Shown: positions 21,557 through 56,488 of the stretch, one piece after another
How positions within the stretch are numbered: position 1 is the first letter of the stretch
Layout: each line of letters starts with the position of its first letter
Virus record (IMG/VR): IMGVR_UViG_3300036826_000261
Coordinates: 8,693 to 72,692 of that record
Source of the DNA: a virus
Reading direction: 5' to 3' (one strand)
Length of the DNA stretch: 64,000 bases
The notes under the pieces: model-generated
The model's database searches: none
Told to the model about the DNA's origin: nothing
Seen by the model: only the letters and a program-made list of their open reading frames with translations
Made by a program: the position numbers and the translations under genes

Positions 21557-21760
21557 ATGACTCAGCGCACTGACGATCGACGGCTGAAGCATTTCGCCTA
21601 CACGCATCTGCCGCCGGCCTATCAAGAAATCAGCAAGCCGTGCTGCGAGCTGGCCGAGCACATGGCGAAGCTGTTGCCGGACAATCCCGAACTGACGGCC
21701 GGCTTGCGCAAGCTGCTCGAAGCCAAGGACTGCTTCGTGCGCGCCCGCATCGAAGGCTGA
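21557..21760 (+). CDS. Acb2/Tad1-like helical hairpin protein (candidate nucleotide sponge)
   Basis: F.Y.HLP...Q..SKP..ELA......P..PELTAGLRKLLEAKDC.VRA. Confidence 0.55.
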   Translation: MTQRTDDRRLKHFAYTHLPPAYQEISKPCCELAEHMAKLLPDNPELTAGLRKLLEAKDCFVRARIEG

Positions 21761-21796
21761 ACAAACTCACCGGAAGCCAACACAGGAGTTGTTACC

Positions 21797-22225
21797 ATGT
21801 CGATAGCTGACGCTACCGAAAACGCTATTCTCTTGCTGATTTTCAACGCTACCACCTGGGCGAACTACGCCAACAATGCTTCGACGTCGCCGGAGACCAA
21901 CATCATTTGCGCGTTGCACACCGCAGACCCCGGTGACGCCGGCGCGCAGAATACGTCCGAGATCGGCTATTCGTCCTATGCGCGGGTCAACGTCGCGCGC
22001 ACCTCGGGCGGCTGGACGGTGACCGCCAACAGCGTCAGTCCGGTCGCCGCGATCAACTTCCCGGCCGGCACCGGCGGCTCCGGCACTGCATCGTTCTTCT
22101 CGACCGGCAAGTCCGGCGGCGGCGCTTCGCCGATTTTGTGGAGCGGTACAGTAACACCTAATATCGTGTGCGGCAGCGGTGTCACGCCGAGCCTCTCGAC
22201 GGCGACGACGATCACGCTTGACTAG
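21797..22225 (+). CDS. small tail/fibre-associated structural protein
   Basis: ENAILLLIFN..ALHTADPGDAG....E..Y.SYARV pattern common in phage tail regions. Confidence 0.7.
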   Translation: MSIADATENAILLLIFNATTWANYANNASTSPETNIICALHTADPGDAGAQNTSEIGYSSYARVNVARTSGGWTVTANSVSPVAAINFPAGTGGSGTASFFSTGKSGGGASPILWSGTVTPNIVCGSGVTPSLSTATTITLD

Positions 22226-22250
22226 GATGCAGCGTGAAAACCGGGAGATC

Positions 22251-22319
22251 ATGAAGGCGATCGTCTTCATGATTGTCGTCGGGCTGATCGTTTATGTTCT
22301 GGCGATGTGGCTGGGTTGA
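22251..22319 (+). CDS. 22 aa hydrophobic peptide
   Basis: MKAIVFMIVVGLIVYVLAMWLG, GGGAG RBS. Confidence 0.35.
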   Translation: MKAIVFMIVVGLIVYVLAMWLG

Positions 22320-22320
22320 C

Positions 22321-22425
22321 GTGATGCCGTCATTTGCGACGGCGATCACCTTGAGCCAAGCCTGCCAATACCCTGCTTGGCCTCGCCGGGGGCACGCCGT
22401 GACACGTCCCGCCAAACCATGCCTA
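22321..22425 (-). ncRNA. stand-alone GGY-NN guide-like RNA (mini-array 1) with terminal hairpin
   Basis: Minus strand TAGGCAT GGTTT GGCGG GACGT GTCAC GGCGT.. GGCA GGCTT; same start motif as the main array; hairpin 22321-22349. Confidence 0.75.
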
Positions 22426-22434
22426 AGAGCTTTG

Positions 22435-22463
22435 CAGCTAGGTGTGCTCAGCAGCCCTGTCAA
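22435..22463 (-). promoter_or_regulatory. sigma70-like promoter for mini-array 1
   Basis: TTGACA-N17-TAGCTG on the minus strand, about 9 nt before TAGGCATGG. Confidence 0.65.
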
Positions 22464-22483
22464 CCTGTGAAAGTAAATGAATC

Positions 22484-22942
22484 ATGGATAGTTGCAAGGC
22501 TATGCGAGAATGCCTCGAAGAGATGGATGTCGATGGCGCCCGTTCACTCTGGCATCTTATTGCGCCCAACATGCCGCAGCCGAGAAGTAATTACGAGGCC
22601 GCTTGCACATTGCACATGGCAAGGACAACCGCAACGTGGATGACACCACGTCAGCGTTATTACAGCCATCGTTGGTGCCTCGATCACGGCGTGATGTCAT
22701 TGCTGCCGGATCACGAGAAGCCGGCAGCCGAGCGGATGTATCCGCAAGTCGCAAGTTCGGTCGGCATCTCGGTGAAGGGGATATCCGATCTGACGGCGCC
22801 GGTGGTGCCGCATGTGCGCAGCGCGATGGAGCACGCGGTGCTCGAAGCCTACGCCGACGGCCGCAAGGACGACATTCCGCATATCAAGCTGCGGATGAAA
22901 GAGGCGCGCGCCACGACGATGCGCAAGCTGTTGGGGAAATGA
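22484..22942 (+). CDS. hypothetical protein
   Basis: 152 aa ORF with phage-like codon usage. Confidence 0.6.
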   Translation: MDSCKAMRECLEEMDVDGARSLWHLIAPNMPQPRSNYEAACTLHMARTTATWMTPRQRYYSHRWCLDHGVMSLLPDHEKPAAERMYPQVASSVGISVKGISDLTAPVVPHVRSAMEHAVLEAYADGRKDDIPHIKLRMKEARATTMRKLLGK

Positions 22943-23233: not shown

Positions 23234-26200
23234 ATGGCTACTTATGTTTTTGTTGTCAGTGGCACGACGACCGGCGCACCGCCCGGTGATTATCAGGCCA
23301 CGGGCTCGACCTGGGACGTTATCGGCGGTGGTGGTTCGGGCGCAGTTGCCAGTGGTGGCGTGCAGCCGAATGCTGGTGGCGGTGGTGGTTGGTCGCAGAT
23401 CGTCAACGTCGCGTGGTCGTCGGCGCAGACCGTGCAAATCGGTCAAGGCGGCGCGGCGAAATCGACCACCAACACGGCCGGCGCGGCGGGCACCGCGACA
23501 TGGGCACGCATCGACGGTGGCGGCACCGCGCCTGCGACGACCGCGCAAGGCGTCTTAGCCAATCCCGGCAGTGGCGGCCTCGTCGGCAGCGGGACTGGCA
23601 CGGCCGGCGGTTCGGTCACCGGCGCAGTTGGCACCACGACGCGCGCGGGCGGCAATGCCGGCGCTGAAAATGATACATCGTACGCCGGTCCCGGCGCTGG
23701 CGGCGCAGCCGGTCCGGGCGGCGCGGGCGGCACGGGTGGCGCTGATTCGCAGAACGGTCCGTACGGCGGCTCAGCTGGCGGCGGCGCCAATGGCGGCGGC
23801 GGTGCAGGCGGCGCCACCACGGGCGGGCAAGTTGGCACCCAAGGCGGTGCGTCGATCTCGACCGGCAATCAGACCGGCGCATCGGGCGGCACCACCAATA
23901 CGGCGCCGACAGCCGCGAACGCGGGCAGCAATGGATCAGGCGGCGGCGGTGGCTCTGGTAGTACTTCGTCGGGCACGGCAGCCGGGCGCGGTGGCGACGG
24001 CGGCGCCGGCAAGGAATACGATTCGTCGCACGGCTCCGGCGGTGGCGGCGGATCGGGTGGCGGCAACACCGCAGGCGGCACCAACGGTCAAGGCGGCACC
24101 GGTGGTCTGTACGGCGGTGGTGGCGGCGCATCGGGCTCCGGCAGTTCGGGTCTCGGCACTTCCGGCGCAGGCGCGCAGGGTCTGCTCGCGATCACCTACA
24201 CGCCGAGCGGCGGGGCGCCGACGTGGGCCTTTGTCGGCGTCACAAGTGTCGTATCAGTTACAGCAGCAACGCACACGCTGAGCGAACCCGCAGGTGTGCA
24301 GCAGGGCGACTTGCTCGTTGCTGTGATTTCATCGCGTATTGCTTCCACGACATCGATCACCTTGCCATCTGGCTGGTCGCTGGTCGCTGAGGCAAAGAAC
24401 AATAACACGCTCACGACGTCGAGTGCCGCAGCATCCGGCATGATGGCGTACTGCGTGCGGGGCGCCTCGGCGCCAAGCTTTACTTTTACGCACCCGACTG
24501 CACCCAGTGTTGCGCTAGGCTATGTCGTTGCTTATCGCAACAACGATCCGAGCCCTTTGGACGTCCATACGGCTTGGACCACAGCGACGAACACGACAGC
24601 TGTTTCCGGCGCAGGCGTCACTACGGGTTTTGCTTCAGACCTGATCGTGGTTGGCACCTGTGGCGGTCAGGAGGCGACGTGGACAGCGTTGTCTGCGGCA
24701 ACCGATCCGTCCGGGGCTAGCGGCACTGGTGGCCAGACCGGAAACCCGGTGACGGGGTCTTGGCTGGAGCGCGCTGAAAACACTACTACGACCGGCGCCG
24801 ACACGTCGTTGGGAATCTTCGATGCGGTACGCGGCACGGCCGGCGCGACTGGCAATATATCGGTCACAGCCGGGACGGCTGCGGCGCATGTGCTCGTCAT
24901 TGGCGCCTTCAAGCTTGCGCCGCCCGCTGGCAATAACGGCGCGGCGGCGGGCACTGGTACTGCGAGCGCGGTCGGCACCGGGCTCAAGATCGCGCAGGGT
25001 GCCGCAGCGGGCACATCTACCGCGAGCGCGACCGGCAGTGGTGCGGGCAGCGGCCAAGGCGTCGCGAGCGGCACCGGTGCAGCGAGCGCGGTCGGCATCG
25101 GGCTCAAGATTGCGCAGGGTGCTGCAGCGGGCACATCTACCGCGAGCGCGACCGGCAGCGGCGGCGCTGTTGCTCCGGCTTTCGTGCAGCACGTTACGCC
25201 GAACGCGTTTCAAGGCGGCAGTTCTGCAAGTGCGACCGGCGCGGCGGTGGGCGTCGGCAATTGCGTCGTCGGCGCGGTGTCGTGGCAGCGCGCCGACACG
25301 CTCGATCTCACGTCGGTCACCGACGACAAGGGCAACACTTACACGATCGTGGATCGTGGAGGCGATCCAGGTAACGCACAGACTCACGTCACTTTCATTC
25401 TCTGGAATATCACCAACGGCCCTTCGACGATCACGGCGAACTTCAGCCAGTCTGAAGGCATCAACGACATCGTCTGGGATGAATATTCGGGAGTTCTGAC
25501 TACCGATCCGCGCGATGGTCACGCGATCAATCTGCAAAGTCCCGCCAGCAACACCACCGATGCGGCGACGTCGGGCAGCATTACGACCACCGTCGCCAAC
25601 GATCTGATCTGGTCGTCGATCGTTGATTGCCAAGGCTCCAGTCAGAACGGCTACGCGGCGGGCACCGGCTACACCAAGCGCGGCACGTTCTGGCTTTCTG
25701 GTTACGGCGCGACCGAAGACAAGACCCTGGCCACGCCGGGCAGTGTCGCCGGCACGTGGACGCTGACCACTTCGTCGGTTGTTGCGGTTGCGGTGATCGC
25801 GCTGAAGCCGGCTTTGCCGGCTGGTGCCGGCAGCGGTGCGGCTGCGGGCACCGGCGCCGCCAACGGCGTCGGACAATCGACGGCGGTGGCTGCCGGGTCG
25901 GCCGCCGGCACTTCGACCGCGAGCGCGACCGGCAGCGGAGCGAGCAACAGCACGGGGTCGAGCGCAGGCACCGGCGCAGCGAGCGGCGTCGGGCGCAGCA
26001 CATTCCTCGCCACGGCAGTCGCGACCGGCACGGGCGCGGCCTCGGCGACCGGGACTGCGGCAGCGGCCGGCACAGGCAATGCGTCGGGCGCGGGTGCAGC
26101 GTCCGCCACCGGGGCCGCCACGGTGGTGGCGACCGGCAGCACCGCCGGCACCAGCAGCGCGCAGGCGCAAGCCGCCGGGCAGGGCGCGACGTCCGGAACC

Positions 26201-27958
26201 GGCACGGCAACGGGCATTGGGCGGGCCACAGCCGCCGCTACAGCGGCGTCCGCCGCGACCGGCACCGCGACAGCCGCCGGCACCGGGATCGTCTCAGCGC
26301 CCGGCGCCGCTGCGGGAACAGGCGCTGCAGCGGCCACCGGGGCGGCGCTGTTCAGCGCCACCGGCAGCGCGGCGGGAACCGGTATTGCGCTGGGGGTGGC
26401 GCCGAGCCTTGGCAGCGCCACCGGCATCGGTGCGGCCAGCGCGGTCGGACAATCGACAGCGGCGGCGGTCGGCAGCGCGACGGCGACCGGCACCGCCACG
26501 GCGACCGGTACCGGCATCATCTTTTCGCCTGGGGCGGCGGCCGGCACCGGCGCGGCCAACGCCACCGGATCGGGCGTCGGCGTCACACAAGGCGCTGCCG
26601 CCGGCACCGGCGCGGCGTCCGGGGTCGGACAGTCTACAGCGGTTGCGACCGGATCGGCGGCGGGCGTCGGGGTCGCGTCAGGGGTCGGGCTCGCCAGTGC
26701 GCAGGGCGCTGCCGCCGGCCTCGGCGCGGCGTCCGGGATCGGGCGATCGACGGCGCTGGCGACCGGCAACGCGGCCGGCACAGGCACCGCGTCTGGAATT
26801 CAGCAAGGCACCTCGATCGCGGTTGCCGCCGGCACCGGGTCGGCACAGGCGCAAGCCGCTGGGCAAGGTGCCGCTGCCGGTCTCGGCGCGGCCAGCGCGA
26901 CCGGCCAAGCGACGGCGCGCAGCCCGGGCAATGCCGCCGGTACCGGCGCGGCACAGGCGCGAGCCGCCGGGCAAGGGGCGACGTCCGGCGTTGGAACGGC
27001 TTCTGGCATCGGCGCCAGCCTCGCCAGTGCGGTCGGCGCAGCGGCCGGCACTGGCACAGCGGCGGCGCAATCGTTGCAGGGTGGGCTCGGCAGCGCCGCC
27101 GGCACCGGTGTGGCGAGCGGCATCGGGCGATCGACGGCGGCAGCCGTCGGCAGTGCGGCTGGTCTCGGGTCGGCGGCGGCGGTCGCCAGCAGCCTGTCGA
27201 TTGGCGCGGCCACCGGCACCGGCGTGGCTTCGGCGGTTGGCGTCGGGGCGAGCAATTCGGTCGGCGCATCTGCCGGAGTCGGCAGCGCGGCGGCGCAATC
27301 GCTGCAGGGCACGGTCGGCGTTGCCGCCGGCACCGGGACGGCCACTGGCGCCGGGGCGGCGTTGGTTCGGCAGCCGGGCAGCGCGGCCGGGATCGGCGCA
27401 GCCAACGCGGTCGGCACCGGCATCTTTGTCGCGGTCGGGTTTAGCTCCGGTCTCGGCGGCGACACCGGCGAGGCGACGGCGCTGGCGTCGGCGCAAGGCC
27501 ATGCCGTCGGCACCAGCACGGCGACGGCGCCGGGCAGCGGGTTCGAGATCGGCGACGGCAGCGCCGCCGGTCACGGCGTCGCGACCGGTGTCGCCAAATC
27601 GGTCAATGCCGGCGTCGGCGCGGCGGCCGGGCTCGGCACGCTGCAGGCGGTGGCGCGGGTTATCGGTGCAGGCGTCGCGCAGGAAGCGTCCGATGTCGCC
27701 AATGGCGTCGCTTATTGGGTGCCGGAAGGCACCGCGCAGGAAGCGCCCGACACCGCGCACGGCACCAGCGGCAAGCGCTTCAGCGAGGATTTCATTGCCG
27801 AGATCGCGCCGCCGCCGGAGCTGGCGGGCGAGATCGAACCGACACCGGCGTTCACCGGGCGCAAGCGCTCGGCCGATCTGGTGGCGCAACTGTCCGCCGC
27901 GTCCGCGTTCACTGGGCGCACGCGCAACAGCCAAGATTTTATCGGACGCATGCCATGA
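23234..27958 (+). CDS. large Gly/Ala-rich virion fibre/decoration protein
   Basis: Polyglycine-rich N-terminus, two beta-rich modules, then more than 600 aa of GAAAGxGxA repeats. Confidence 0.8.
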   Translation: MATYVFVVSGTTTGAPPGDYQATGSTWDVIGGGGSGAVASGGVQPNAGGGGGWSQIVNVAWSSAQTVQIGQGGAAKSTTNTAGAAGTATWARIDGGGTAPATTAQGVLANPGSGGLVGSGTGTAGGSVTGAVGTTTRAGGNAGAENDTSYAGPGAGGAAGPGGAGGTGGADSQNGPYGGSAGGGANGGGGAGGATTGGQVGTQGGASISTGNQTGASGGTTNTAPTAANAGSNGSGGGGGSGSTSSGTAAGRGGDGGAGKEYDSSHGSGGGGGSGGGNTAGGTNGQGGTGGLYGGGGGASGSGSSGLGTSGAGAQGLLAITYTPSGGAPTWAFVGVTSVVSVTAATHTLSEPAGVQQGDLLVAVISSRIASTTSITLPSGWSLVAEAKNNNTLTTSSAAASGMMAYCVRGASAPSFTFTHPTAPSVALGYVVAYRNNDPSPLDVHTAWTTATNTTAVSGAGVTTGFASDLIVVGTCGGQEATWTALSAATDPSGASGTGGQTGNPVTGSWLERAENTTTTGADTSLGIFDAVRGTAGATGNISVTAGTAAAHVLVIGAFKLAPPAGNNGAAAGTGTASAVGTGLKIAQGAAAGTSTASATGSGAGSGQGVASGTGAASAVGIGLKIAQGAAAGTSTASATGSGGAVAPAFVQHVTPNAFQGGSSASATGAAVGVGNCVVGAVSWQRADTLDLTSVTDDKGNTYTIVDRGGDPGNAQTHVTFILWNITNGPSTITANFSQSEGINDIVWDEYSGVLTTDPRDGHAINLQSPASNTTDAATSGSITTTVANDLIWSSIVDCQGSSQNGYAAGTGYTKRGTFWLSGYGATEDKTLATPGSVAGTWTLTTSSVVAVAVIALKPALPAGAGSGAAAGTGAANGVGQSTAVAAGSAAGTSTASATGSGASNSTGSSAGTGAASGVGRSTFLATAVATGTGAASATGTAAAAGTGNASGAGAASATGAATVVATGSTAGTSSAQAQAAGQGATSGTGTATGIGRATAAATAASAATGTATAAGTGIVSAPGAAAGTGAAAATGAALFSATGSAAGTGIALGVAPSLGSATGIGAASAVGQSTAAAVGSATATGTATATGTGIIFSPGAAAGTGAANATGSGVGVTQGAAAGTGAASGVGQSTAVATGSAAGVGVASGVGLASAQGAAAGLGAASGIGRSTALATGNAAGTGTASGIQQGTSIAVAAGTGSAQAQAAGQGAAAGLGAASATGQATARSPGNAAGTGAAQARAAGQGATSGVGTASGIGASLASAVGAAAGTGTAAAQSLQGGLGSAAGTGVASGIGRSTAAAVGSAAGLGSAAAVASSLSIGAATGTGVASAVGVGASNSVGASAGVGSAAAQSLQGTVGVAAGTGTATGAGAALVRQPGSAAGIGAANAVGTGIFVAVGFSSGLGGDTGEATALASAQGHAVGTSTATAPGSGFEIGDGSAAGHGVATGVAKSVNAGVGAAAGLGTLQAVARVIGAGVAQEASDVANGVAYWVPEGTAQEAPDTAHGTSGKRFSEDFIAEIAPPPELAGEIEPTPAFTGRKRSADLVAQLSAASAFTGRTRNSQDFIGRMP

Positions 27959-29371: not shown

Positions 29372-29562
29372 AAAGCATGAAGGGTGACCCGTTCCCAGAT
29401 CACCCTTCACTTGTGCCGACCATGACGAGACCGGCCCGGCCAGACGGCGCCAAGGCCAAACCCCGACAAACCACGCCTGCCAAGTCTGGCTTTGCTTGGC
29501 CAAATCTTACCGCGCCAGACCTTGTCGCGCCGAACCGCGCCTGTCCTCGCCTGCCATGCCTA
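29372..29562 (-). ncRNA. stand-alone GGY-NN guide-like RNA (mini-array 2) with terminator
   Basis: Minus strand TAGGCAT GGCA, 14 pentamers, GGCA, then a second unit; stem TGAAGGGTGA/TCACCCTTCA followed by TGCTTTT. Confidence 0.8.
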
Positions 29563-29572
29563 AGAATTGGTG

Positions 29573-29601
29573 TAGGTAGTTTATTTGTTTGCGACTGTCA
29601 A
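29573..29601 (-). promoter_or_regulatory. sigma70-like promoter for mini-array 2
   Basis: TTGACA-N17-TACCTA on the minus strand, about 10 nt before TAGGCATGG. Confidence 0.65.
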
Positions 29602-29618: not shown

Positions 29619-32114
29619 ATGGCGACTGAACAAGAGCAACTGGAACTTGTCGTCACGCTTGATGATCAAGAAGCGCTGGCGAAGCTTGCCAATCTGAAAA
29701 ATCAACTGGCCAACATGGGGTCAGGGTCTTCGGGGTTTGGCAAGGTCGGTGAGAGTGTCGAGCGTGCAACCAAAGGCGTCAAGGATTTAAGCTTCGAGAT
29801 CGCCAAGGGCACGTTCTGGGGCAACATGTTTGCCGAGGCAGGCAAGGAAGTTCTCAAGTTCGGCGAAAAAGTTGTCGAGAGCGCGACGGACATCCAAGGG
29901 TTATCGAAATCGATCGTCGATCTTTCGACGACCGCTTCGCGCATGGGAACAAGTTTAGGTCAACTGCGCTCCAATCTGCGCGTGTTCGATGAAATGGGAG
30001 TCGATGCCGGCAAGGCCACTGCGACATTGCAGGGTTTGGCCGATTCGATGGGCGATCTGCAAACGATTAACGGTCGGCTGCGCGGTCAATTGCGCAGTGG
30101 CGGATTTCTCGAACTACAGGAGATGCTGAAGGTTCTGCAAGACGCTGACGAGGCGAAGACGGTCGAAGAGTTCGGCGAGACCATGCGCAAGGCCGCCGAG
30201 AAGGTGCGGGAGCGTTGGACCGATCTCGCCGGTCCTGAAAAAGGCGCAGAGATGCAGCGGCGGTTTCTGGCGTTGCTCAAGGCGCCGGAGCTGGATCAGC
30301 TCGAAGGCAAACTCGGCAAAATAAACAAACAACAAGATGAGTTTTCCAAAAGACAGGAAACCATTCTGAAGCAATTCTACGCGGCTAGTCGCGGTATGGC
30401 GGAAGGTCTTGAGCGCATCGGGCAAGCGATCGGCACGGTGGTTGCAGCGATGAATTTGCCGTGGATGCAGACATTGGCCGACACGTTCAAAGCTGGTGCG
30501 GAATACGCCGAACGCATTGCGCTGGCGCTGACCAAGTTGAATGTCACACCAACAGAGGCAAAAAGCGCGATCCAAGACACGTTCGGCAAGTTTGGTCTAG
30601 GTGTGCCGGCGCCGAGTTTCAACGAGCGTTTCGGGACATGGCCCGGTGCGACCGCGGCGCCGATGAAATTCATCGGCGGCAGTGTGCAGGGCGGTGAGTG
30701 GGACAGCCGCAATTTCACGGCCAGCGGCAACGATTTTTGGCGCAATCTGCAGGGTCGCGGCGACGTCGATATCGAAGACCGGCGCAATCTCGAAGATAAC
30801 ACCGATCAGACCAAACAGCTCACTGAGCAGATGCGCCAGCTCAATGATGCATTGACCAATCCGATGGCGACGGGACGTGGCGGCGGCTTGGCTGCGATGG
30901 GCGCAGCGCTCGGTCTCGGCGATCTCGGCGGTGGCGGTGGCGGCGGCGGTGGCGGCGGCGGCGGCGGTCGTGCGCGACCGTGGGCGCTACGCAGTCCGAG
31001 TGATGCGCCTTACGGCAATGATGCTGGACCCGGCACCGGCAAGGGTGCCGGTGAATCCCCTGCGGCCATGGGTGCCCCACCGGGTCCCGGCGGTCCTGGT
31101 GGCATTACGGCGCCGGCCGGGACGCCGATCATGCGCGGCGGCACTACAACGGTGACGACGGCGAGCGGGCACAAGTTTCAGGTTGCTGCCGCCTACGCGA
31201 AAAATTTCCAGGGCTTCATCAACGATTACGAAGCGGCTGGCGGTGTCATCGGTCCCAATTCCGGCACGCTTGGCAGTCGGCCGAGCAATGCATCTGGACA
31301 TCCGATCGGTACGGCGTTCGATCTCAATCAAGTCGCGCGCAACGTTCGCAAGGGTGGCGTATCGCTGCCGCAGGAGCAAGAGGAAGCGCTGGCGAAAAAA
31401 TGGGGTCTTGTCTCGGGCAGCCAGTGGCGCAATCCCGATGCCGGACATTTCGGCATTCGCAGCGCCAAGGCAGCGCGCGACGCGTTGATCGCCAATGGCG
31501 TGCCGGAGGGTGAAGCCAACAAGATCGTCGGCGGTGCCGCCAGCGGCGGGGCGGTCGGCGGCAGTGCCGGTGATGCCGCCAAGGTTAGGGGCTCATGGTT
31601 CGGCAACGCACCGGGTTGGCATGACCCATCCGAGCCGGTGGATAGTCCGAAGAGCAATCGGCCCGGCATTGCGTTGCCGTCCAAAGCGACGCTTGGTCAG
31701 ATGTTCGAGGTGACGACGCCGGACGGTCGCAAATTTATGTTGCCGCAAACCGATGTCGGACCGGCAGCGCGCACCGGGCGCGGCGTTGATATCACGGCGG
31801 CAGCGGCGGCGAGGATGGGTTATACCGCGAAGAATTTTCCGACCGATGAACGCTTCATGGTGCAGCCGGCGTCCAAAAGCATGGACGCAGCGATTGCCCG
31901 TGGCGCGGAGCTGGATAAGGAGCGCGAAACGACGGTGACCGGCAAAGGCCATTTGAAAGTCGATATCAATGGCCCACCCGGCACGCGAGCGAGCGCGACG
32001 GGCGAAGGGCTGCTGAAAGACACCTCGATTTCGCGTGCGACGCAGATGGCGCCGGCCAGCTCCGGGCCGACCAATCCGGCCGGCGACACGCCGTACGTGT
32101 TCGGCGGGACTTAA
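29619..32114 (+). CDS. tape measure protein with M15-like peptidase and DPBB/RlpA-like domains
   Basis: Helical N-terminal half; SGHPIGTAFD..KWGL..G..W..PDAGHF; GSWFG..IALP..DVGP..GRGVDIT. Confidence 0.8.
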   Translation: MATEQEQLELVVTLDDQEALAKLANLKNQLANMGSGSSGFGKVGESVERATKGVKDLSFEIAKGTFWGNMFAEAGKEVLKFGEKVVESATDIQGLSKSIVDLSTTASRMGTSLGQLRSNLRVFDEMGVDAGKATATLQGLADSMGDLQTINGRLRGQLRSGGFLELQEMLKVLQDADEAKTVEEFGETMRKAAEKVRERWTDLAGPEKGAEMQRRFLALLKAPELDQLEGKLGKINKQQDEFSKRQETILKQFYAASRGMAEGLERIGQAIGTVVAAMNLPWMQTLADTFKAGAEYAERIALALTKLNVTPTEAKSAIQDTFGKFGLGVPAPSFNERFGTWPGATAAPMKFIGGSVQGGEWDSRNFTASGNDFWRNLQGRGDVDIEDRRNLEDNTDQTKQLTEQMRQLNDALTNPMATGRGGGLAAMGAALGLGDLGGGGGGGGGGGGGGRARPWALRSPSDAPYGNDAGPGTGKGAGESPAAMGAPPGPGGPGGITAPAGTPIMRGGTTTVTTASGHKFQVAAAYAKNFQGFINDYEAAGGVIGPNSGTLGSRPSNASGHPIGTAFDLNQVARNVRKGGVSLPQEQEEALAKKWGLVSGSQWRNPDAGHFGIRSAKAARDALIANGVPEGEANKIVGGAASGGAVGGSAGDAAKVRGSWFGNAPGWHDPSEPVDSPKSNRPGIALPSKATLGQMFEVTTPDGRKFMLPQTDVGPAARTGRGVDITAAAAARMGYTAKNFPTDERFMVQPASKSMDAAIARGAELDKERETTVTGKGHLKVDINGPPGTRASATGEGLLKDTSISRATQMAPASSGPTNPAGDTPYVFGGT

Positions 32115-52670: not shown

Positions 52671-53549
52671 ATGGCGAAAAAGGCACCCGTCAGTGAAATC
52701 ATCGAAATCCAAGCTATCGAAATGGCGTCGCTGGATTTCCATGTGGTCGGCACCAGCCCGTTCATCATGCATCGCTTCAGTCAGAAGGCGTGGCAGGAAT
52801 TGCTGCTGCCGTCGATCCGCGAAAACCGCGCTAGTCTCGAACAGAAGCTCAAGCATGATCCGTATGCAGAATTTCGTGGCGCGTTCTATCGCAACAGCAA
52901 TCCGCGCGCCAAGACGGCGTACCATATTCCAAACGGCGCGTTTCACGGCGCGATCGCCAGCGCCGCGCTCGACATGCCGGGTGCCAAGAAGGCGCAGATC
53001 GAGCGGTTGACCAAGATCACCAGCGTCAACATCGAACTGTATGGCATCCCGAAAATCTTTTGCAGCATGGTGCGTAACAGCGACATCTCGCGCACGCCAG
53101 ATGTGCGCACCCGGCCGATCTTCCCGCGCTGGGCGTGCACGGTTTCGGTGCGCTACGCGAAGAACGCGTTGACGGCCAAAGCCGTCGCCAATCTGTTCGG
53201 CGCGGCGGGCGAGATCATCGGCATCGGTGATTGGCGCGGTCAGAAGGGCGGACCGTTCGGCGCGTTCCGCACCAACGTGTCGGTGAACGATAAAGAGTTC
53301 AAGAGCATCTTGAAGGAAGGCCGCGTCGCGCAATTGAAAGCTTACGACAAACCGTTGTTCTACGATGAAGACACGGAAGAAATTTTAACGTGGTTCGCCA
53401 CCGAGGTGCGCCGCCGTGAGTTGGAAGGCAAGATGCGCAGCGATAACGTCAAGGAGTTTCGCGTTATCACCGAGCGCGGCAAGGAGCGCGGCAACGGCGA
53501 GTTGGTGAGCCTTGACGACAAGCGGCGGACCCGTCGAAAGGCCGCGTGA
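52671..53549 (+). CDS. stand-alone Cas7/RAMP-like RNA-binding protein (Vipr-like effector)
   Basis: VVGTSPFIMH first strand, IP..AF..AI..A, R.RP.FP.W, and C-terminal Gly-rich loop GIGDWR..KGGPFGAF typical of RAMP-fold proteins; no other cas genes in the window. Confidence 0.75.
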   Translation: MAKKAPVSEIIEIQAIEMASLDFHVVGTSPFIMHRFSQKAWQELLLPSIRENRASLEQKLKHDPYAEFRGAFYRNSNPRAKTAYHIPNGAFHGAIASAALDMPGAKKAQIERLTKITSVNIELYGIPKIFCSMVRNSDISRTPDVRTRPIFPRWACTVSVRYAKNALTAKAVANLFGAAGEIIGIGDWRGQKGGPFGAFRTNVSVNDKEFKSILKEGRVAQLKAYDKPLFYDEDTEEILTWFATEVRRRELEGKMRSDNVKEFRVITERGKERGNGELVSLDDKRRTRRKAA

Positions 53550-54043
53550 TGGCGAAAGCCACCAAACACGACCGCATCAAAGCGGCGTTGGAAGCGATCA
53601 GGCGCTCGCATCGCGGGCGCTTGACGGCGCGGGCCGTGGTCGAGGCGGCCAAAAATCCTAGGCACCCGTTGCACAGTGAATTTGAATGGAACAACCAGAA
53701 AGCAGCGGATCAGCAACGCTTGGAGCGTGCGCGCGAACTAATCAGATACGTCACGGTCGTGGTCGTTGATGCAACGCGTAAAGTCGAAACACGATTTTAT
53801 GCGCACGATCCGCGAACGCCGCATCGTGAAGGCTATGTCAGCATCTTGGAGATGAACCGCCGCGATGCTGAACAAGATGTGGTCAACGCTATCGCGATCT
53901 GTCAATCGACGATCGATCGCGCGCTCAGCAAAGCGGAATTTCTCAGCGCGAAGCATCGTGGTGTTTCACGATTGTTGAAAAATGCAGTTGCTACCCTTGC
54001 CGCCGCGCATGATCTGCTCGAAGGCTCGGCGGCAGCGGCGTGA
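53549..54043 (+). CDS. accessory protein coupled to the RAMP-like gene
   Basis: LT..AVVEAA..P.HPLH..FEW....AA...RL..AR.LIR motif; start overlaps the RAMP stop. Confidence 0.7.
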   Translation: MAKATKHDRIKAALEAIRRSHRGRLTARAVVEAAKNPRHPLHSEFEWNNQKAADQQRLERARELIRYVTVVVVDATRKVETRFYAHDPRTPHREGYVSILEMNRRDAEQDVVNAIAICQSTIDRALSKAEFLSAKHRGVSRLLKNAVATLAAAHDLLEGSAAAA

Positions 54044-54048
54044 AGTCA

Positions 54049-54269
54049 TAGGCATGGCAGGCTAGGCAAGGTGCGGCCCGGCCGGAGTAGGTTCGGTGCG
54101 GCAAGGCAGGCATGGCCCGGGAGACGCGGTGAAGCGTGTCCGTGATCTGGTAGCGTCGGGTAAGGCGGCGTTGGATGGGGTGAGGCGAGGCAGGCTTGGT
54201 CAGGTCTGACGAGACTGGGCGCGGTAGGTTTTGGCGCGGTACGGCAAGGCGTGATGCGGTAAGGCAGGC
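54049..54269 (+). ncRNA. GGY-NN pentamer array, block 1 (3 units)
   Basis: Starts TAGGCATGGCA; GGCA separators at 54056, 54105, 54189, 54263 (spacings 49/84/74 = 5n+4). Confidence 0.85.
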
Positions 54270-54527
54270 ATGGCCAGAAACACAGCGGATAAGGTTCTCG
54301 AAAACAAGTTGCGGCTGATCGCCAAACGGCGGGGTTTGTTTCTTTCGAAATCCCGTCGTCGCGATCCGTTTGCGCTCGACTTTGGTTATGAGTTGAGAGA
54401 CGCGCAACAGCACGTCATCGAAACAGCGTGCAGTCTTACTCGAATCGAAAACTTGTTAGCTCTCGGTCGGACGGGGCGGAAACGTTTAACAGTCGAAGGA
54501 TGGCGTCACATCATCCTTGGTAAGTAG
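54270..54527 (+). CDS. small basic protein embedded in the array
   Basis: ENKLRLIAKRRGL.L.KSRRRDP.ALDFGY; non-repetitive, lower-GC insert. Confidence 0.65.
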   Translation: MARNTADKVLENKLRLIAKRRGLFLSKSRRRDPFALDFGYELRDAQQHVIETACSLTRIENLLALGRTGRKRLTVEGWRHIILGK

Positions 54528-56488
54528 GCATGGCAGGCGTGGCCGGGCCGGGTTGTCCCCGGTGTGGCAGAGCATGGCAGCGCAGGGTTGACATGGCAGG
54601 GCAGGCAGGGTCCGTCGTGGTCGCGCGGGATTGGGCGGGGCAAGGCACGGCACGATGCTGGTCTGGCGAGGCGTGGCAGGCATGGCTGGATCAGGCGTGA
54701 CGAAGCTTGGTGTAGCTAGGCCGGGTGCAGTGTAGGCATGGCGAGGCAGGCGCGGCGGGACAAGGTCCGATATGGCGTGGCGCGGTCTGGTTCGGTCTGG
54801 CCGGGTTTGGCAGGCAAGGTGCGTCGAGGCCAAACATGGTGTGACAAGGTACGGCGCGGCCTGATCTGGGCTCGACTGGGCAGGCGCGGTGGGTTCTGGC
54901 TCGACATGGTTAGGCGAGGCCCGGTGATGCCCGGCATGTTGAAGTGCGTCCTGGCAGGCGTGGCGGGGGTGCGTGCGAGGCGGGACCGGGCAAGGTCGGG
55001 CACGTTATATGGTCTGGCTGGGCACGGCTTGGCGGGTCACGGCAAGGCACGGCCGGCAAGGTTTGTCCGGAACCGGTTTGGCTTGGCGAGATGCGATTAG
55101 GCGAGGCGAAGCGAGGCCGGCTAAGCGTGACTTGGTCGGGTAGACGTGGCCGGGCACGGTAGCGGCGTGGATCGGCCGGCGACGCTAGGCTTGTCGTCGA
55201 TCGGCATGACATGGCGCGGCACGGCGAGGCGTGGTTCGGCCGGCGCGATTAGGTGTGGTCGGAATCGGCATGGCTCGGTGTCGCGTGGTCTGGCGTGGCT
55301 CGGCTGGGCCGGCTGGCGGGATTTGGCTTGATGCGGTCAGGCAAGGTCCGGCCCGGATCGGCGCGGCATGGCCGGCGTGGTCTGGCTTGAAGTGGTTGGG
55401 ATTAGGCGTGGCGCGGTATGACGCGGTGAGGCAGGCGGGGAGTGGCTAGACGTGGCTGCGCGCAACAAGGTCGGTCAAGTCCTGGTTTAGGCGTGGTGTG
55501 ACGCTGTGAGGCAGGCAAGGCCCGGACGGGCAAGACCGGATTAGGCATGGCGATGCTGGGCCGGCGGGGCACGGTGGAGGCCCGGACGGGCACGGCCGGG
55601 CAAGGCGTGGCAATGCAAGGCAGGCAAGACTTGGCAGGGCGCGGCCCGGCGAGAAATGGTTTGGCGCGGCGCGGCAGGCATGGCAGGGCGATACATGGTC
55701 AGGCGAAGCACGGCACAGCAGGGCAGGCGGGACTGGGTGTTCTGGGCACGGCTGGGCACGGCCGAAGCATGGCCGGCGAGGCTTGTCCTGGCACGGCGGG
55801 GCTGAGGCGTGGCAGCGTTTAGGCGCGGCCGGCGAGGCTTGTCCTGATTCGGCGGGGCTCGGCTTAGGCGCGGCCGGGTCGGTCACGGCAAGGCAGGCAC
55901 GGCTAGGCGTGGCAGGGAGCGGCAACGCCGGGTCGGGCGTGGCTGGGCTAGGCGACGGCGAGGCGAGGCGTGGTGCGGCAGGCGCGGCATGACAAGGCGC
56001 TGTGAGACCCGGCTTGGCAGGGTGCGGTACGGCATGGCTCGGCAGCGCTAGGCTTGGCAGGCACAGGTGATGCGGCGCGCGACAAGGCGGGACAGGGCGA
56101 GGCCGGCGCGGCATGAAAAGGCGCGGCGCGTTCGGGTGCAGCGCGGCGGGGTTGCGGCAAGGCACGGCTCGGCAGGACCGGCGGGGCTGGGCGTGTCTGG
56201 GCACGGCTCGGCGCGGCACGGCACGGTCCGGCAACGCCGGCAGCGCTGGGCGAGACATGGCATGGCTTGGCGGGGCTGGACACGGTGAGGCGAGGCAGGC
56301 GCGATCTGGCGTGGTTTGGCGTGGCGGGGCGAGGTACGAGCTGGGCGAGGCGAGGCAGGCGTGGTCGGGCGCAACGCGATGTGGTGTGACTGGTCGCGGC
56401 TCGCTGCGGTACGGCCCGGCAGGCGGGACTGGGCGTTGCTGGATCAGGTTCGGCCCGGCATGGCTAGGCGTGGCAGGCGGCGCAGGCG
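54525..56488 (+). ncRNA. GGY-NN pentamer array, block 2 (about 30 units)
   Basis: Continuous 5-nt periodicity of GG(C/T)NN with GGCA/GGCC tetramer separators about every 45-85 nt; only low-complexity spurious ORFs. Confidence 0.9.

What the first reader, a model, noticed from the sequence alone, without database searches (positions are those of the whole stretch)
22133..22463. Orphan guide beside the gene it targets; this phage's allele differs by synonymous Leu/Ser switches
Seen: a minus-strand unit with its own TTGACA-N17-TAGCTG promoter and terminal hairpin has NN = AT TT GG GT AC GT CC GA CA AG AT. Its gapped reverse complement is AT CT TG TC GG AC GT AC CC AA AT (ILWSGTVTPNI). The adjacent gene 21797-22225 encodes exactly ILWSGTVTPNI at 22133-22165 (ATT TTG TGG AGC GGT ACA GTA ACA CCT AAT ATC). 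Nine of 11 dinucleotides match, and both mismatches are six-fold-degenerate swaps (CTN to TTG, TCN to AGC), the only synonymous changes in this peptide that alter codon positions 1-2. Inference: the guide attacks the common allele in related phages while self is recoded to be immune, an allele-exclusion or gene-drive-like cassette.
Basis: partly seen in the sequence, partly recalled or inferred. Interest (0 to 1): 0.95.

Follow-up and report, generated by a model that had tools for sequence, protein, structure and literature searches.

The report
Solo VIPR guide RNA beside its target
This short repeat is a stand-alone guide-RNA gene of the recently described phage VIPR silencing system, and its code spells the neighbouring virion gene as many rival phages write it, while the phage's own copy differs at two of the eleven letter pairs the guide reads.

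Summary

- **The unit:** 22463→22321 (minus strand) has 11 NN-GGY pentamers.
- **Match to self:** read with one skipped base, it matches 22133-22164 at 19/22. The next best hit is 16, and 1 of 3000 shuffled guides reaches 19 genome-wide.
- **The system:** it is VIPR (Vipr RAMP protein, Vap, GGY/NN vrRNAs, 1-nt skip rule; three 2026 bioRxiv preprints). The phage carries vipr, vap and a 2.4-kb array at 52671-56480.
- **Membership:** the protein family profile hits PDB "SUSP1 Vipr protein" at E 5e-8, with the GGY-binding RPIF…GDWR residues aligned.
- **Targets elsewhere:** the guide matches 22/22 in 26 IMG/VR contigs, always in frame in homologues of the neighbouring gene. The self-type TTG/AGY allele is the rarest class, at 2 contigs.

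- Relatives without the guide also carry TTG/AGY.
- A self match of 86% lies above the published ≥80% target-calling threshold, so self-immunity is unproven.
- No nuclease was found, so a cleavage-based gene drive is unsupported.
- No expression data cover the unit.

This scan has noted similar target-linked solo guides on other DNA.

The parts
22435..22463 (-). Promoter-like region of the solo unit: TTGACA (22463-22458), a 17-nt spacer and TAGCTG (22440-22435)
   Evidence: Read. The same layout precedes unit B. The tool's sigma-70 scan does not call it, because the -10 hexamer matches the consensus at only 2 of 6 positions.
22355..22428 (-). Solo vrRNA repeat tract. Leader TCTTAGGC (22428-22421), then 11 NN-GGY units (first NN at 22420-22419, last at 22369-22368), then punctuation TGGCAGGC and TTGGC.
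   Evidence: Segmentation. Of the 10 spacers, 6 are exact GGY and the others are GAC, GTC, GCC and AGC. One unit is 6 nt long. For comparison, 326 of 493 spacer triplets in the main array are GGC or GGT.
22321..22349 (-). Terminal hairpin of the solo unit (11-12 nt arms, 6-nt loop, no U tract)
   Evidence: kept in the centroid structure.
22226..22483 (.). 258-nt insertion between the gp80-like gene and orf152. It carries the solo unit (minus strand) and a 22-codon hydrophobic ORF (22251-22319, plus strand).
   Evidence: Among the 62 pattern-matched IMG/VR contigs scanned, orf152 follows within 60 nt in 35, and none of the 13 gaps of 61-400 nt holds a strict GGY run longer than 2. One search gives examples L001, L004, L009, L017, L021 and L024; L264 is shown.
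22133..22165 (+). Self near-target: codons 113-123 (ILWSGTVTPNI) of the neighbouring gene. The match is 19/22, with mismatches at Leu TTG and Ser AGC.
   Evidence: GC3 here is 4/11 against 0.83 in the rest of the gene.
21797..22225 (+). Target-bearing gene, 142 aa, Pfam PF23140 (Gp80, podophage GP4 fibre I protein; E 1e-8) and phrog_240
52671..53549 (+). vipr gene (292 aa from the ATG at 52671). A RAMP/Cas7-like protein that would load the solo guide in trans, 30 kb away.
   Evidence: AF2 model pLDDT 87.8. Foldseek top hits are all Csm3, Cmr4, Cas7-11 or type VII Cas7. VIA Z up to 9.3. The family profile hits PDB 36pp_D 'SUSP1 Vipr protein' at E 5e-8.
53546..54043 (+). vap-like accessory gene (165 aa), overlapping the vipr stop codon
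   Evidence: 6078 relatives at E<=0.001. Model pLDDT 92.9. Only weak winged-helix regulator matches, E 0.03-0.5.
54044..56480 (+). Main vrRNA array: about 493 NN-GGY units (425 of 5 nt, 44 of 4 nt, 24 of 6 nt). It is punctuated by GGC-A-GGC and interrupted by an 85-codon ORF at 54270-54527.
   Evidence: Its first unit (54063-54107) matches the phage's own vipr at 52863-52888 at 16/18, and 0 of 400 permutations reach that.
29379..29575 (-). Second solo unit (B) with the same promoter-like layout and leader. Its first guide (14 NN) matches the adjacent tape-measure-like gene at 29667-29707 at 21/28, in the same sense.
   Evidence: 13 of 3000 permutations reach 21. No perfect target was found in IMG/VR.

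Best explanation
The unit is a solo vrRNA gene of a VIPR system. It is a short guide RNA of eleven NN-GGY pentamers, transcribed from its own promoter-like site and ending in a hairpin.

**How it would work.** It would be loaded by the Vipr protein that the same phage encodes 30 kb away. This is established for SUSP1 VIPR and inferred here. One Vipr protomer binds each repeat, hides the GGY and presents the NN. The filament then binds double-stranded DNA whose target strand pairs at two of every three bases, and this blocks transcription.

**What it recognises.** The skipped base falls on the codon wobble position. The guide therefore recognises the conserved peptide stretch ILWSGTVTPNI of the gp80-like virion gene in many diverged phages. 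Its most likely role is to silence that gene, and possibly the late operon behind it, in competing relatives or satellites that carry the common CTN/TCN allele.

**The phage's own copy.** It lies 60-90 nt from the inserted cassette. It mismatches the guide at units 8 and 10 of 11 through Leu and Ser codon-family switches. That may spare it, so weapon and resistant allele would be inherited together.

**Shown versus inferred.**
- Shown: the architecture, the statistics of the match, the natural perfect targets and the Vipr homology.
- Inferred: expression, loading, that 86% identity is too low for self-binding, and the benefit in competition.
- Unresolved: whether the self allele was recoded under selection or simply inherited or imported.
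For: **Match and perfect targets**
- Match statistics: 19/22, next best 16, and 1 of 3000 shuffled guides reaches 19 genome-wide. The best hit lies about 170 nt from the unit.
- The extraction of the NN string is objective.
- Perfect 22/22 targets occur at 28 sites in 26 IMG/VR contigs. All are in frame in gp80-like homologues (27 ILWSGTVTPNI, 1 MLWSGTVTPNI) of 48-78% identity.
- Among the first 80 homologue loci, 31 match the guide better than self does: 22/22 in 4, 21 in 8, 20 in 19.
- Among 60 unique metagenome alleles, 7 are 22/22. These include four of the closest relatives, L265-L268, at 81-82% identity.
- Allele classes: 26 contigs are guide-type and 2 are self-type.

**System identity**
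- Array.
- RAMP fold.
- Profile hit to SUSP1 Vipr at E 5e-8, aligning R138 and D177-W178-R179 to residues invariant or nearly invariant in the family. Their role in GGY binding comes from the paper text.
- The same vipr-vap-array synteny is seen in G001. L158 has vipr followed directly by an array, with no partner gene seen.

**Context**
- The 258-nt region is an insertion.
- Two other guides behave alike. Array unit 1 matches the phage's own vipr at 16/18, with 0 of 400 permutations as good. Solo B1 matches the adjacent tape-measure-like gene at 21/28, with 13 of 3000 as good.

**Published biology, read here as text**
- The skip rule, dsDNA binding, silencing and targets in competing phages.
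- Solo vrRNAs, and self-match scores lower than non-self scores.
- Engagement starts near the 3' end of the vrRNA. Both self mismatches lie in the 3'-proximal units.
Against: - No evidence of transcription. The one RNA-library contig laid covers 21688-21943 only, and the -10 hexamer is poor.
- The self identity of 86% exceeds the >=80% threshold that the VIPR authors use to call targets. It is close to the 89.2% mean of a functional natural targeting. No mismatch-tolerance data were found in the three papers; the structure paper has 0 occurrences of 'mismatch'.
- TTG/AGY alleles occur without a guide in G001, L229, L264 and L004.
- The gene tree leaves it unresolved whether these share ancestry with the self allele.
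- The unit has one 6-nt repeat and only 6 of 10 exact GGY spacers, so the published strict caller might split it.
- No conserved pseudoknot tail like that of type II vrRNAs was identified.
- Virion proteins are diffusible in co-infection, so the benefit of silencing a rival's structural gene is not obvious (my reasoning).
- 29 of the 30 main-array units tested have no significant target in this genome. None had a significant hit (p<=0.05) in the 80 relatives' loci.
Confidence: 0.6

Rival explanations
1. The solo vrRNA acts on the phage's own gene as a self-regulator. The 19/22 match would be enough for Vipr binding at 22133-22164. The complex would throttle or time transcription through the late structural operon. 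In the same way, array unit 1 would feed back on vipr itself.
For: - Self identities of 86% (unit A) and 89% (array unit 1 on vipr) lie above the published >=80% calling threshold.
- All three significant matches in this genome are to nearby genes of the phage itself.
- In L158 the first array unit also matches its own vipr, at 19/26.
[quoted passage not shown] Easier melting or R-loop-linked deamination at a site that is really bound could produce this. That reading is my inference.
Against: - The guide is a perfect 22/22 match to foreign alleles and an imperfect one to self. A self-regulator would be expected to match self best.
- Both mismatches are codon-family switches in the 3'-proximal units, where SUSP1 VIPR begins engagement.
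- The authors found no self hits at >=80% in the clades they examined, and they report lower self than non-self scores for solo guides.
- A roadblock inside the phage's own tail-gene operon would be costly.
Confidence: 0.2
2. The unit is a decaying or silent remnant. It was once a vrRNA, perhaps brought in by recombination at a junction that often receives selfish inserts. It is no longer expressed or loaded, and its resemblance to the gene is historical.
For: - The -10 hexamer is weak and the tool calls no promoter.
- 4 of 10 spacers depart from GGY and one repeat is 6 nt long.
- No RNA cover.
- No orthologous unit was found in 80 IMG/VR loci, 62 pattern-matched contigs or 80 metagenome loci.
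- The scaffold pattern search in metagenome contigs found 0 matches.
Against: - All 11 NN still spell the conserved peptide exactly, 22/22 to 26 natural contigs. Drift in an unselected guide should have broken this.
- The leader and promoter-like layout are shared letter for letter with unit B.
- The share of exact GGY spacers (6/10) is like that of the main array (326/493).
- The sequence is identical in six soil DNA runs, though five of them may be the source sample.
Confidence: 0.12
3. Chance resemblance between a G-rich intergenic stretch and the neighbouring gene.
Against: - 1 of 3000 shuffles reaches the score anywhere in 145 kb of searched strand, and the real hit is about 170 nt away.
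- An objective segmentation gives the same string.
- The four units after the slip spell I-L-W-S, exactly the conserved residues upstream.
- The leader motif is shared with the array.
Confidence: 0.01

Closest known systems
VIPR systems (Vipr RAMP protein, vap and GGY/NN vrRNAs), defined on Escherichia phage SUSP1 and a Pseudomonas fulva prophage. Sources: bioRxiv 10.64898/2026.04.26.720920 (results and methods sections read) and 10.64898/2026.04.26.720927 (results and discussion read).
   Same: - A minimal two-gene locus in a phage, with a Vipr protein of RAMP fold.
- The profile hits SUSP1 Vipr at E 5e-8 with the GGY-binding R…GDWR residues aligned.
- Guides are built of GGY/NN pentamers.
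- Targets obey the 1-nt skip rule with the skip on the wobble base.
- Targets occur on either strand.
- Targets lie in genes of other phages.
   Different: - Identity to SUSP1 Vipr is only about 21%.
- The array is 2.4 kb of near-continuous pentamers punctuated by GGC-A-GGC. This fits the 'staggered array' legend (figure not seen) rather than the type II layout of ~100-nt vrRNAs with pseudoknot tails.
- Two guides have self matches >=80%. The authors did not find such matches in the clades they checked.
- The VIPR type could not be assigned, because supplementary tables were closed.
Solo (orphan) vrRNAs of F5 satellites and of VIPR-null SUSP1-family phages. Source: bioRxiv 10.64898/2026.10.15.759431 (results, discussion and three methods sections read).
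   Same: - A stand-alone vrRNA far from any vipr gene. [quoted passage not shown]
- It is wobble-aligned.
- It aims at relatives' genes.
- Its self score is lower than its non-self score.
   Different: - Here the phage is VIPR-positive.
- The solo sits directly beside the phage's own homologue of its target, which is a virion gene rather than vipr, a vrRNA or a satellite recombinase.
- Self differs from non-self only by synonymous Leu/Ser codon-family switches. Neither 'six-fold' nor 'sixfold' occurs in that paper, and it argues that escape requires amino-acid changes.
Free-standing homing endonuclease genes of phages ('intronless homing', as with the T-even seg/mob genes; recalled, not read here)
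   Same: - A small selfish insert between two conserved genes.
- It lies next to a conserved coding site that it recognises in genomes lacking it.
- The resident allele is altered at that site.
- The very same junction holds an HNH_3+HTH endonuclease gene in L018/L019 and in L003 (G001).
   Different: No nuclease was found in this VIPR locus. The characterised VIPR action is silencing, not cleavage, so copying of the insert by break repair is not expected.
Virus-borne mini-CRISPR arrays that target close relatives (archaeal viruses; recalled, not read here)
   Same: A viral guide aimed at the allele of a sister virus, with the carrier's own allele mismatched. The proposed role is exclusion of competitors.
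   Different: There are no CRISPR repeats or contiguous spacers. The guide is a gapped pentamer code read by a Vipr filament encoded by the virus itself.

Membership tests
VIPR system | Vipr protein: a single-RRM RAMP fold with a G-loop and thumb | tested here: met
   AF2 model pLDDT 87.8. All leading Foldseek hits are Cas7-family chains, best E 3.4e-6. VIA Z is 9.3 to Cmr4 and 9.1 to Csm3. The profile of 120 homologues hits PDB 36pp_D 'SUSP1 Vipr protein' at E 5e-8.
VIPR system | GGY-binding residues of SUSP1 Vipr (thumb R138; G-loop D177, W178, R179; per the paper text) | tested here: met
   The HMMER alignment puts the family's tRPIF…GiGDWR onto SUSP1 137-183, YRPIF…GVGDWR. R148, W188 and R189 are invariant and D187 is >=90% conserved across 120 homologues. 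H17 could not be placed.
VIPR system | An accessory vap gene next to vipr | tested here: met
   A 165-aa ORF overlaps the vipr stop at 53546-53549. Its homologue follows vipr in G001. The fold gives only weak winged-helix-like matches. Which of vap1-6 it is could not be told.
VIPR system | The guide is made of tandem GGY/NN pentamers (9-16 per vrRNA in type II) | tested here: met
   Unit A has 11 units. Of its 10 spacers, 6 are exact GGY and 4 are one base off. One repeat is 6 nt long. The main array has 326 of 493 GGC/GGT spacers.
VIPR system | A conserved structured 3' tail (a pseudoknot in the SUSP1 clade) | tested here: inconclusive
   Unit A ends in a plain hairpin at 22321-22349. Unit B and the G001 array also end in hairpins. 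No pseudoknot was sought with a model, and other VIPR types have other architectures.
VIPR system | Targets follow the 1-nt skip rule, with the skip on the codon wobble position | tested here: met
   19/22 on self and 22/22 on 28 natural sites, all in frame.
VIPR system | The vrRNA is expressed and bound by Vipr, and the complex binds dsDNA and silences it | not testable with these tools
   Only contigs of one RNA library were available, and they do not cover the unit.
Solo vrRNA (definition in 10.64898/2026.10.15.759431) | [quoted passage not shown] | tested here: met
   The unit lies at 22321-22463 and vipr at 52671-53549, about 30 kb apart on one 72.7-kb genome. The criterion is quoted. Unlike the published phage cases, the carrier is VIPR-positive.
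Homing-endonuclease-type gene drive | A nuclease that cuts the allele lacking the element, so that repair copies the element in | tested here: inconclusive
   No Pfam domain was found in Vipr or Vap. The Vap fold search gives no nuclease match. A weak or missing match does not prove absence. Types III-V of VIPR are reported to carry nucleases.
Homing-endonuclease-type gene drive | An insert beside its recognition site, with the resident allele altered at that site | tested here: met
   The 258-nt insert begins 61 nt after the footprint. The self allele differs at 3 of 22 read bases.

The most novel reading that the evidence does not exclude
Target-linked solo vrRNAs may be 'weapon plus antidote' cassettes. 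The guide against the common allele of a conserved virion gene is inserted right beside a resistant allele. That allele's resistance would come from the one loophole in the wobble-skipping code: codon-family switches at six-fold degenerate Leu, Ser or Arg codons, placed in the 3'-proximal units where the filament starts to engage.

Recombination between related phages would then move guide and resistant allele together. The cassette would spread like the homing endonucleases that occupy the very same junction in sister phages, but by silencing instead of cutting.

The A/T-enriched wobble bases across all three self footprints would be a further, so far undescribed mark of either selection or R-loop mutagenesis at such sites.
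Probability: 0.22. Interest if true: 0.7.

Novelty: new member of a known kind. Interest (0 to 1): 0.45.

Why it matters
The VIPR papers argue that skipping the wobble base makes the guide proof against synonymous escape, so that a target can escape only by changing its protein.

This locus offers a natural test of the exception. The carrier's own allele encodes the same eleven residues and differs from the guide only at a Leu and a Ser codon-family switch. All four allele combinations exist in nature.

Three things would follow if two such switches in the 3'-proximal units abolish binding:
- Six-fold degenerate codons would be the route both to self-tolerance and to escape.
- The placement of solo guides beside a resistant allele would be explained.
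- Mismatch tolerance would become measurable on natural sequences.

If the switches do not abolish binding, VIPR guides also regulate their own phage. Either result extends a system first described in 2026.

Tried and rejected
**Searches that found nothing**
- Rfam: 0 families at gathering score in the window. Only chance-level rows (E 1.7-7.5) appear in 21700-22600.
- RNA evidence: of 7 runs listed, 4 were laid. The one RNA library gave a single 256-nt contig at 21688-21943 and nothing over the unit. This says nothing about expression.
- The DNA runs X1, X2 and X6 carry the stretch without any difference, so they allow no covariation test.
- The sigma-70 scan found no site.

**Relatives of unit A**
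- None was found by blastn or by leader motif in 80 IMG/VR homologue loci.
- None was found by a reverse period-5 search in those loci and in the whole of G001.
- None was found in 62 pattern-matched contigs or in 80 metagenome loci.
- The scaffold pattern with free NN found 0 matches in metagenome contigs.
- Covariation between guide and target across relatives could therefore not be tested.

**Unit B and cross-targeting**
- No close relative of the tape-measure N-terminus was found in IMG/VR or in five related complete genomes. No perfect target for B1 was found in IMG/VR.
- 29 of the 30 main-array units tested have no significant hit in this genome. None has one in the 80 relatives' loci.
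- Cross-targeting between this phage and G001: apart from guide A at 19/22, only one array unit reaches p 0.027, which is not significant after 33 tests.
- Generality: only 1 of 80 units in other array-bearing loci had a local hit, in L158.

**Readings considered and dropped**
- Before the literature search I considered a TRAP- or CsrA-like protein sponge, G-quadruplex or R-loop DNA, a pentapeptide-repeat coding region, and DGR template/variable repeats. I dropped them once the Cas7-like fold and the VIPR papers (onward) explained the anatomy.
- I considered a direct gene-conversion donor for the low-GC3 patch. L264 shares the codon families but only 5 of 11 wobble bases (read), so it is not the donor.
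- The gene tree did not resolve whether the self allele, L004 and L003 share the TTR/AGY state by descent.

**Limits**
- Supplementary tables of the three papers were closed. They may already list target-linked solos, self scores, mismatch data or the type of this Vipr clade.
Full report
**What is there.** The window is part of a single 72,692-bp virus record. Between the 142-aa gene 21797-22225 and the next conserved gene (22484-22942) lie 258 nt that relatives lack (for the Pfam match, PF23140 Gp80, E 1e-8). On the minus strand these 258 nt hold the following, in order:
- TTGACA at 22463-22458;
- a 17-nt spacer;
- TAGCTG at 22440-22435;
- the leader TCTTAGGC;
- eleven NN-GGY pentamers from 22420 to 22368;
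- the punctuation TGGCAGGC;
- a hairpin at 22321-22349.

The tool's promoter scan does not call the site, because the second hexamer is poor. A second unit at 29562 (minus strand) has the same hexamers, spacing and leader. The 9-letter leader occurs only six times in the genome: four times in the large array and twice at these two units.

**Is the match real?** I wrote a segmentation that knows nothing of the target. It rewards G-G-Y at the end of each unit and penalises 4- and 6-nt units.
- Read with one skipped base, the string's reverse complement matches 22133-22164 at 19 of 22 bases. The next best place in the window scores 16.
- Shuffling the order of the eleven dinucleotides reaches 19 in 0 of 2000 trials on the window. 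It does so in 1 of 3000 on the whole genome.
- The true hit lies about 170 nt from the unit.
- Units 1-7 match 14/14. The four units after the single 6-nt repeat match self at 5/8, yet they spell I-L-W-S, the residues that precede the conserved core in homologues. The register therefore continues across the 6-nt repeat.
- One ambiguity remains. The eleventh NN lies in ATTGGC and could be read AT or TT.

**What it is.** At 52671-56480 the phage carries three elements:
- a 292-aa protein;
- an overlapping 165-aa gene;
- 2.4 kb of non-coding DNA made of about 493 NN-GGY units, of which 425 are 5 nt, 44 are 4 nt and 24 are 6 nt, with 326 GGC/GGT spacers.

The protein model (pLDDT 87.8) matches only Cas7-family RAMPs at the top of both fold searches.

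A literature search then showed that the system is published as VIPR. I read the following:
- the results and target-analysis methods of 10.64898/2026.04.26.720920;
- the results, discussion and three methods sections of 10.64898/2026.10.15.759431;
- the results and discussion of 10.64898/2026.04.26.720927.

They report these points:
- Vipr protomers bind one GGY/NN repeat each, hide the GGY and present the NN.
- The filament binds double-stranded DNA in which every third base is skipped.
- The skipped base usually falls on the wobble position.
- Targets lie on either strand, in competing phages and satellites.
- The outcome is transcriptional silencing.
- Solo vrRNAs exist on satellites and on VIPR-null phages.

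Membership is direct. A profile of 120 homologues of the window's protein hits PDB 36pp_D, 'SUSP1 Vipr protein', at E 5e-8. Thumb R138 and G-loop D177-W178-R179 are the residues the structure paper assigns to GGY binding. They align to residues that are invariant or nearly so in this family.

The same vipr-vap-array order recurs in the 62.7-kb genome G001 at 40% protein identity. In the low-GC contig L158 a shorter vipr homologue is followed directly by an array, with no partner gene seen.

The accessory protein model (pLDDT 92.9) gives only weak winged-helix-like matches and no nuclease match.

**What the guide aims at.**
- A scan of IMG/VR for the gapped 22-base pattern finds 26 contigs with 28 sites. 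Every site lies in frame in a homologue of the neighbouring gene, at 48-78% amino-acid identity.
- Among the first 80 homologue loci the guide matches 22/22 in 4, 21 in 8, 20 in 19, 19 (as in self) in 11, and fewer in 38.
- Among 60 unique alleles from 80 metagenome loci, 7 are perfect. These include four of the closest relatives.
- With the other nine dinucleotides held fixed, IMG/VR holds 26 contigs of the guide's CTN/TCN class, 22 CTN/AGN, 12 TTN/TCN (8 Leu, 4 Phe) and 2 of the self TTN/AGN class.
- So the guide spells the commonest allele and the carrier has the rarest.

1. TTG/AGY is not confined to guide carriers.
   - G001 has it and has no guide for this site anywhere in its genome.
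   - L229 has it, with orf152 abutting the gene.
   - L264 has it. It is the closest relative at 85% identity, it has generally A/T-rich wobble bases, and it has no insert.
   - The tree does not resolve whether the state is shared by descent.
   - 'Recoded to be immune' is therefore one of several possible histories. A guide that settled in a lineage that already had the rare allele fits equally well.
2. Immunity is unmeasured. The self match of 86% is above the >=80% threshold used to call natural targets. It is near the 89.2% mean of a working natural targeting. I found no mismatch series in the texts. One point in favour of sparing is an analogy only. In SUSP1, engagement starts at the subunits near the 3' end and proceeds 3' to 5', and both self mismatches lie in units 8 and 10 of 11.
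3. A cleavage-based drive lacks a nuclease.

**Why beside the gene?**
- In relatives the two flanking genes abut. Orf152 follows within 60 nt in 35 of the 62 pattern-matched contigs.
- 13 further contigs have a 61-400-nt gap, with a small ORF in those I read and no GGY run longer than 2.
- 6 carry an HNH gene, 6 show no orf152, and 2 end too soon (examples).
- The 258 nt are thus an insertion, unique so far to this phage.
- The same junction holds an HNH_3+HTH endonuclease gene in L018/L019 and in L003 (G001), so it is a landing site for selfish inserts.

Tight linkage of a guide to a mismatched allele is what selection would favour if relatives recombine often. This is my inference.

The pattern repeats twice in this genome:
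- The first unit of the main array matches the phage's own vipr at 16/18, with 0 of 400 shuffles as good.
- The first guide of solo unit B matches the start of the adjacent tape-measure-like gene at 21/28, with 13 of 3000 shuffles as good. Here the match is in the same sense as the gene, which fits DNA targeting.
- The other 29 array units tested have no significant hit in the genome.

**An unexplained extra.** The skipped wobble bases inside all three self footprints are A/T-enriched.

| Footprint | GC3 inside | GC3 in rest of gene | Share of same-size windows in the gene as low or lower |
|---|---|---|---|
| Unit A on the gp80-like gene | 4/11 | 0.83 | 0.015 |
| Array unit 1 on vipr | 3/9 | 0.79 | 0.025 |
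| Solo B1 on the tape-measure-like gene | 7/14 | 0.68 | 0.114 |

The combined p is 0.003. The structure paper says Vipr makes no base-specific contact with the target, so this is not simple recognition. Possible causes are short imported patches from lower-GC relatives, selection on melting, or deamination in an R-loop. The last would imply that the self sites are in fact bound.

**Verdict.** The object is a solo vrRNA of a VIPR system, a kind described in 2026 preprints. The 'gapped code' is therefore not new, and the scan's own index shows similar target-linked solos noted on other DNA (unchecked notes).

What is particular here:
- a solo guide in a VIPR-positive phage;
- its insertion beside the carrier's own homologue of the target;
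- self and non-self separated only by Leu/Ser codon-family switches;
- two self matches above the published calling threshold.

I rate it a new member of a known kind, of moderate interest, with a testable question about escape and self-tolerance.

Noticed in passing
L018:2488-3270 (also L019); L003:3504-4307 (G001): The junction between the gp80-like gene and orf152, where this phage has the solo guide, holds a free-standing HNH_3+HTH endonuclease gene in sister phages (Pfam E 2e-9 and 8e-8). An HNH gene lies downstream in 6 of 24 contigs with Ser AGN at the site, against 1 of 38 with TCN. The Fisher p is 0.011, but the contigs are not independent and one case is counted from L003.
   Followed up: partly
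window 22133-22165, 52863-52888, 29667-29707: All three places where a guide of this phage nearly matches the phage's own genes have depressed GC at the skipped wobble positions. The values are 4/11, 3/9 and 7/14, against 0.83, 0.79 and 0.68 in the rest of each gene (combined window-rank p 0.003). Foreign alleles of the first site are mostly G/C at these positions.
   Followed up: partly
window 54063-54107 and 52863-52888: The first unit of the main array is antisense to the phage's own vipr gene at 16/18 (YAEFRGAFY region); 0 of 400 shuffles reach this. In L158 the first array unit matches its own vipr in the same sense at 19/26.
   Followed up: partly
window 29379-29575 (minus strand) and 29667-29707: A second solo unit has two guides. 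The first matches the start of the adjacent tape-measure-like gene at 21/28 in the same sense. Its differences look like a diverged allele (DQASAKLANLQNQL against QEALAKLANLKNQL). No perfect target exists in IMG/VR. The second guide has no hit.
   Followed up: partly
window 22251-22319 (+): A 22-codon, strongly hydrophobic ORF with a GGGAG ribosome-binding-like site lies inside the 258-nt insertion, on the strand opposite to the guide. It is absent from relatives.
   Followed up: no
window 54270-54527 (+): An 85-codon ORF interrupts the pentamer array. It has no Pfam or PHROG match, and the pentamer periodicity stops across it.
   Followed up: no
L158:1-1100 (minus strand): A low-GC phage contig has a shorter Vipr homologue followed at once by a GGC-rich pentamer array, with no partner gene in between. 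The array keeps its G+C-rich scaffold in an A+T-rich genome.
   Followed up: partly
L216:10428-11297; L224:1178-2047: Two contigs carry tandem duplicates of the gp80-like gene. Both copies have a perfect 22/22 site for this guide.
   Followed up: no
window 23234-27958 (+): A 1574-aa Gly/Ala/Thr/Ser-rich protein with long low-complexity repeats lies just downstream in the virion module. It was not analysed.
   Followed up: no
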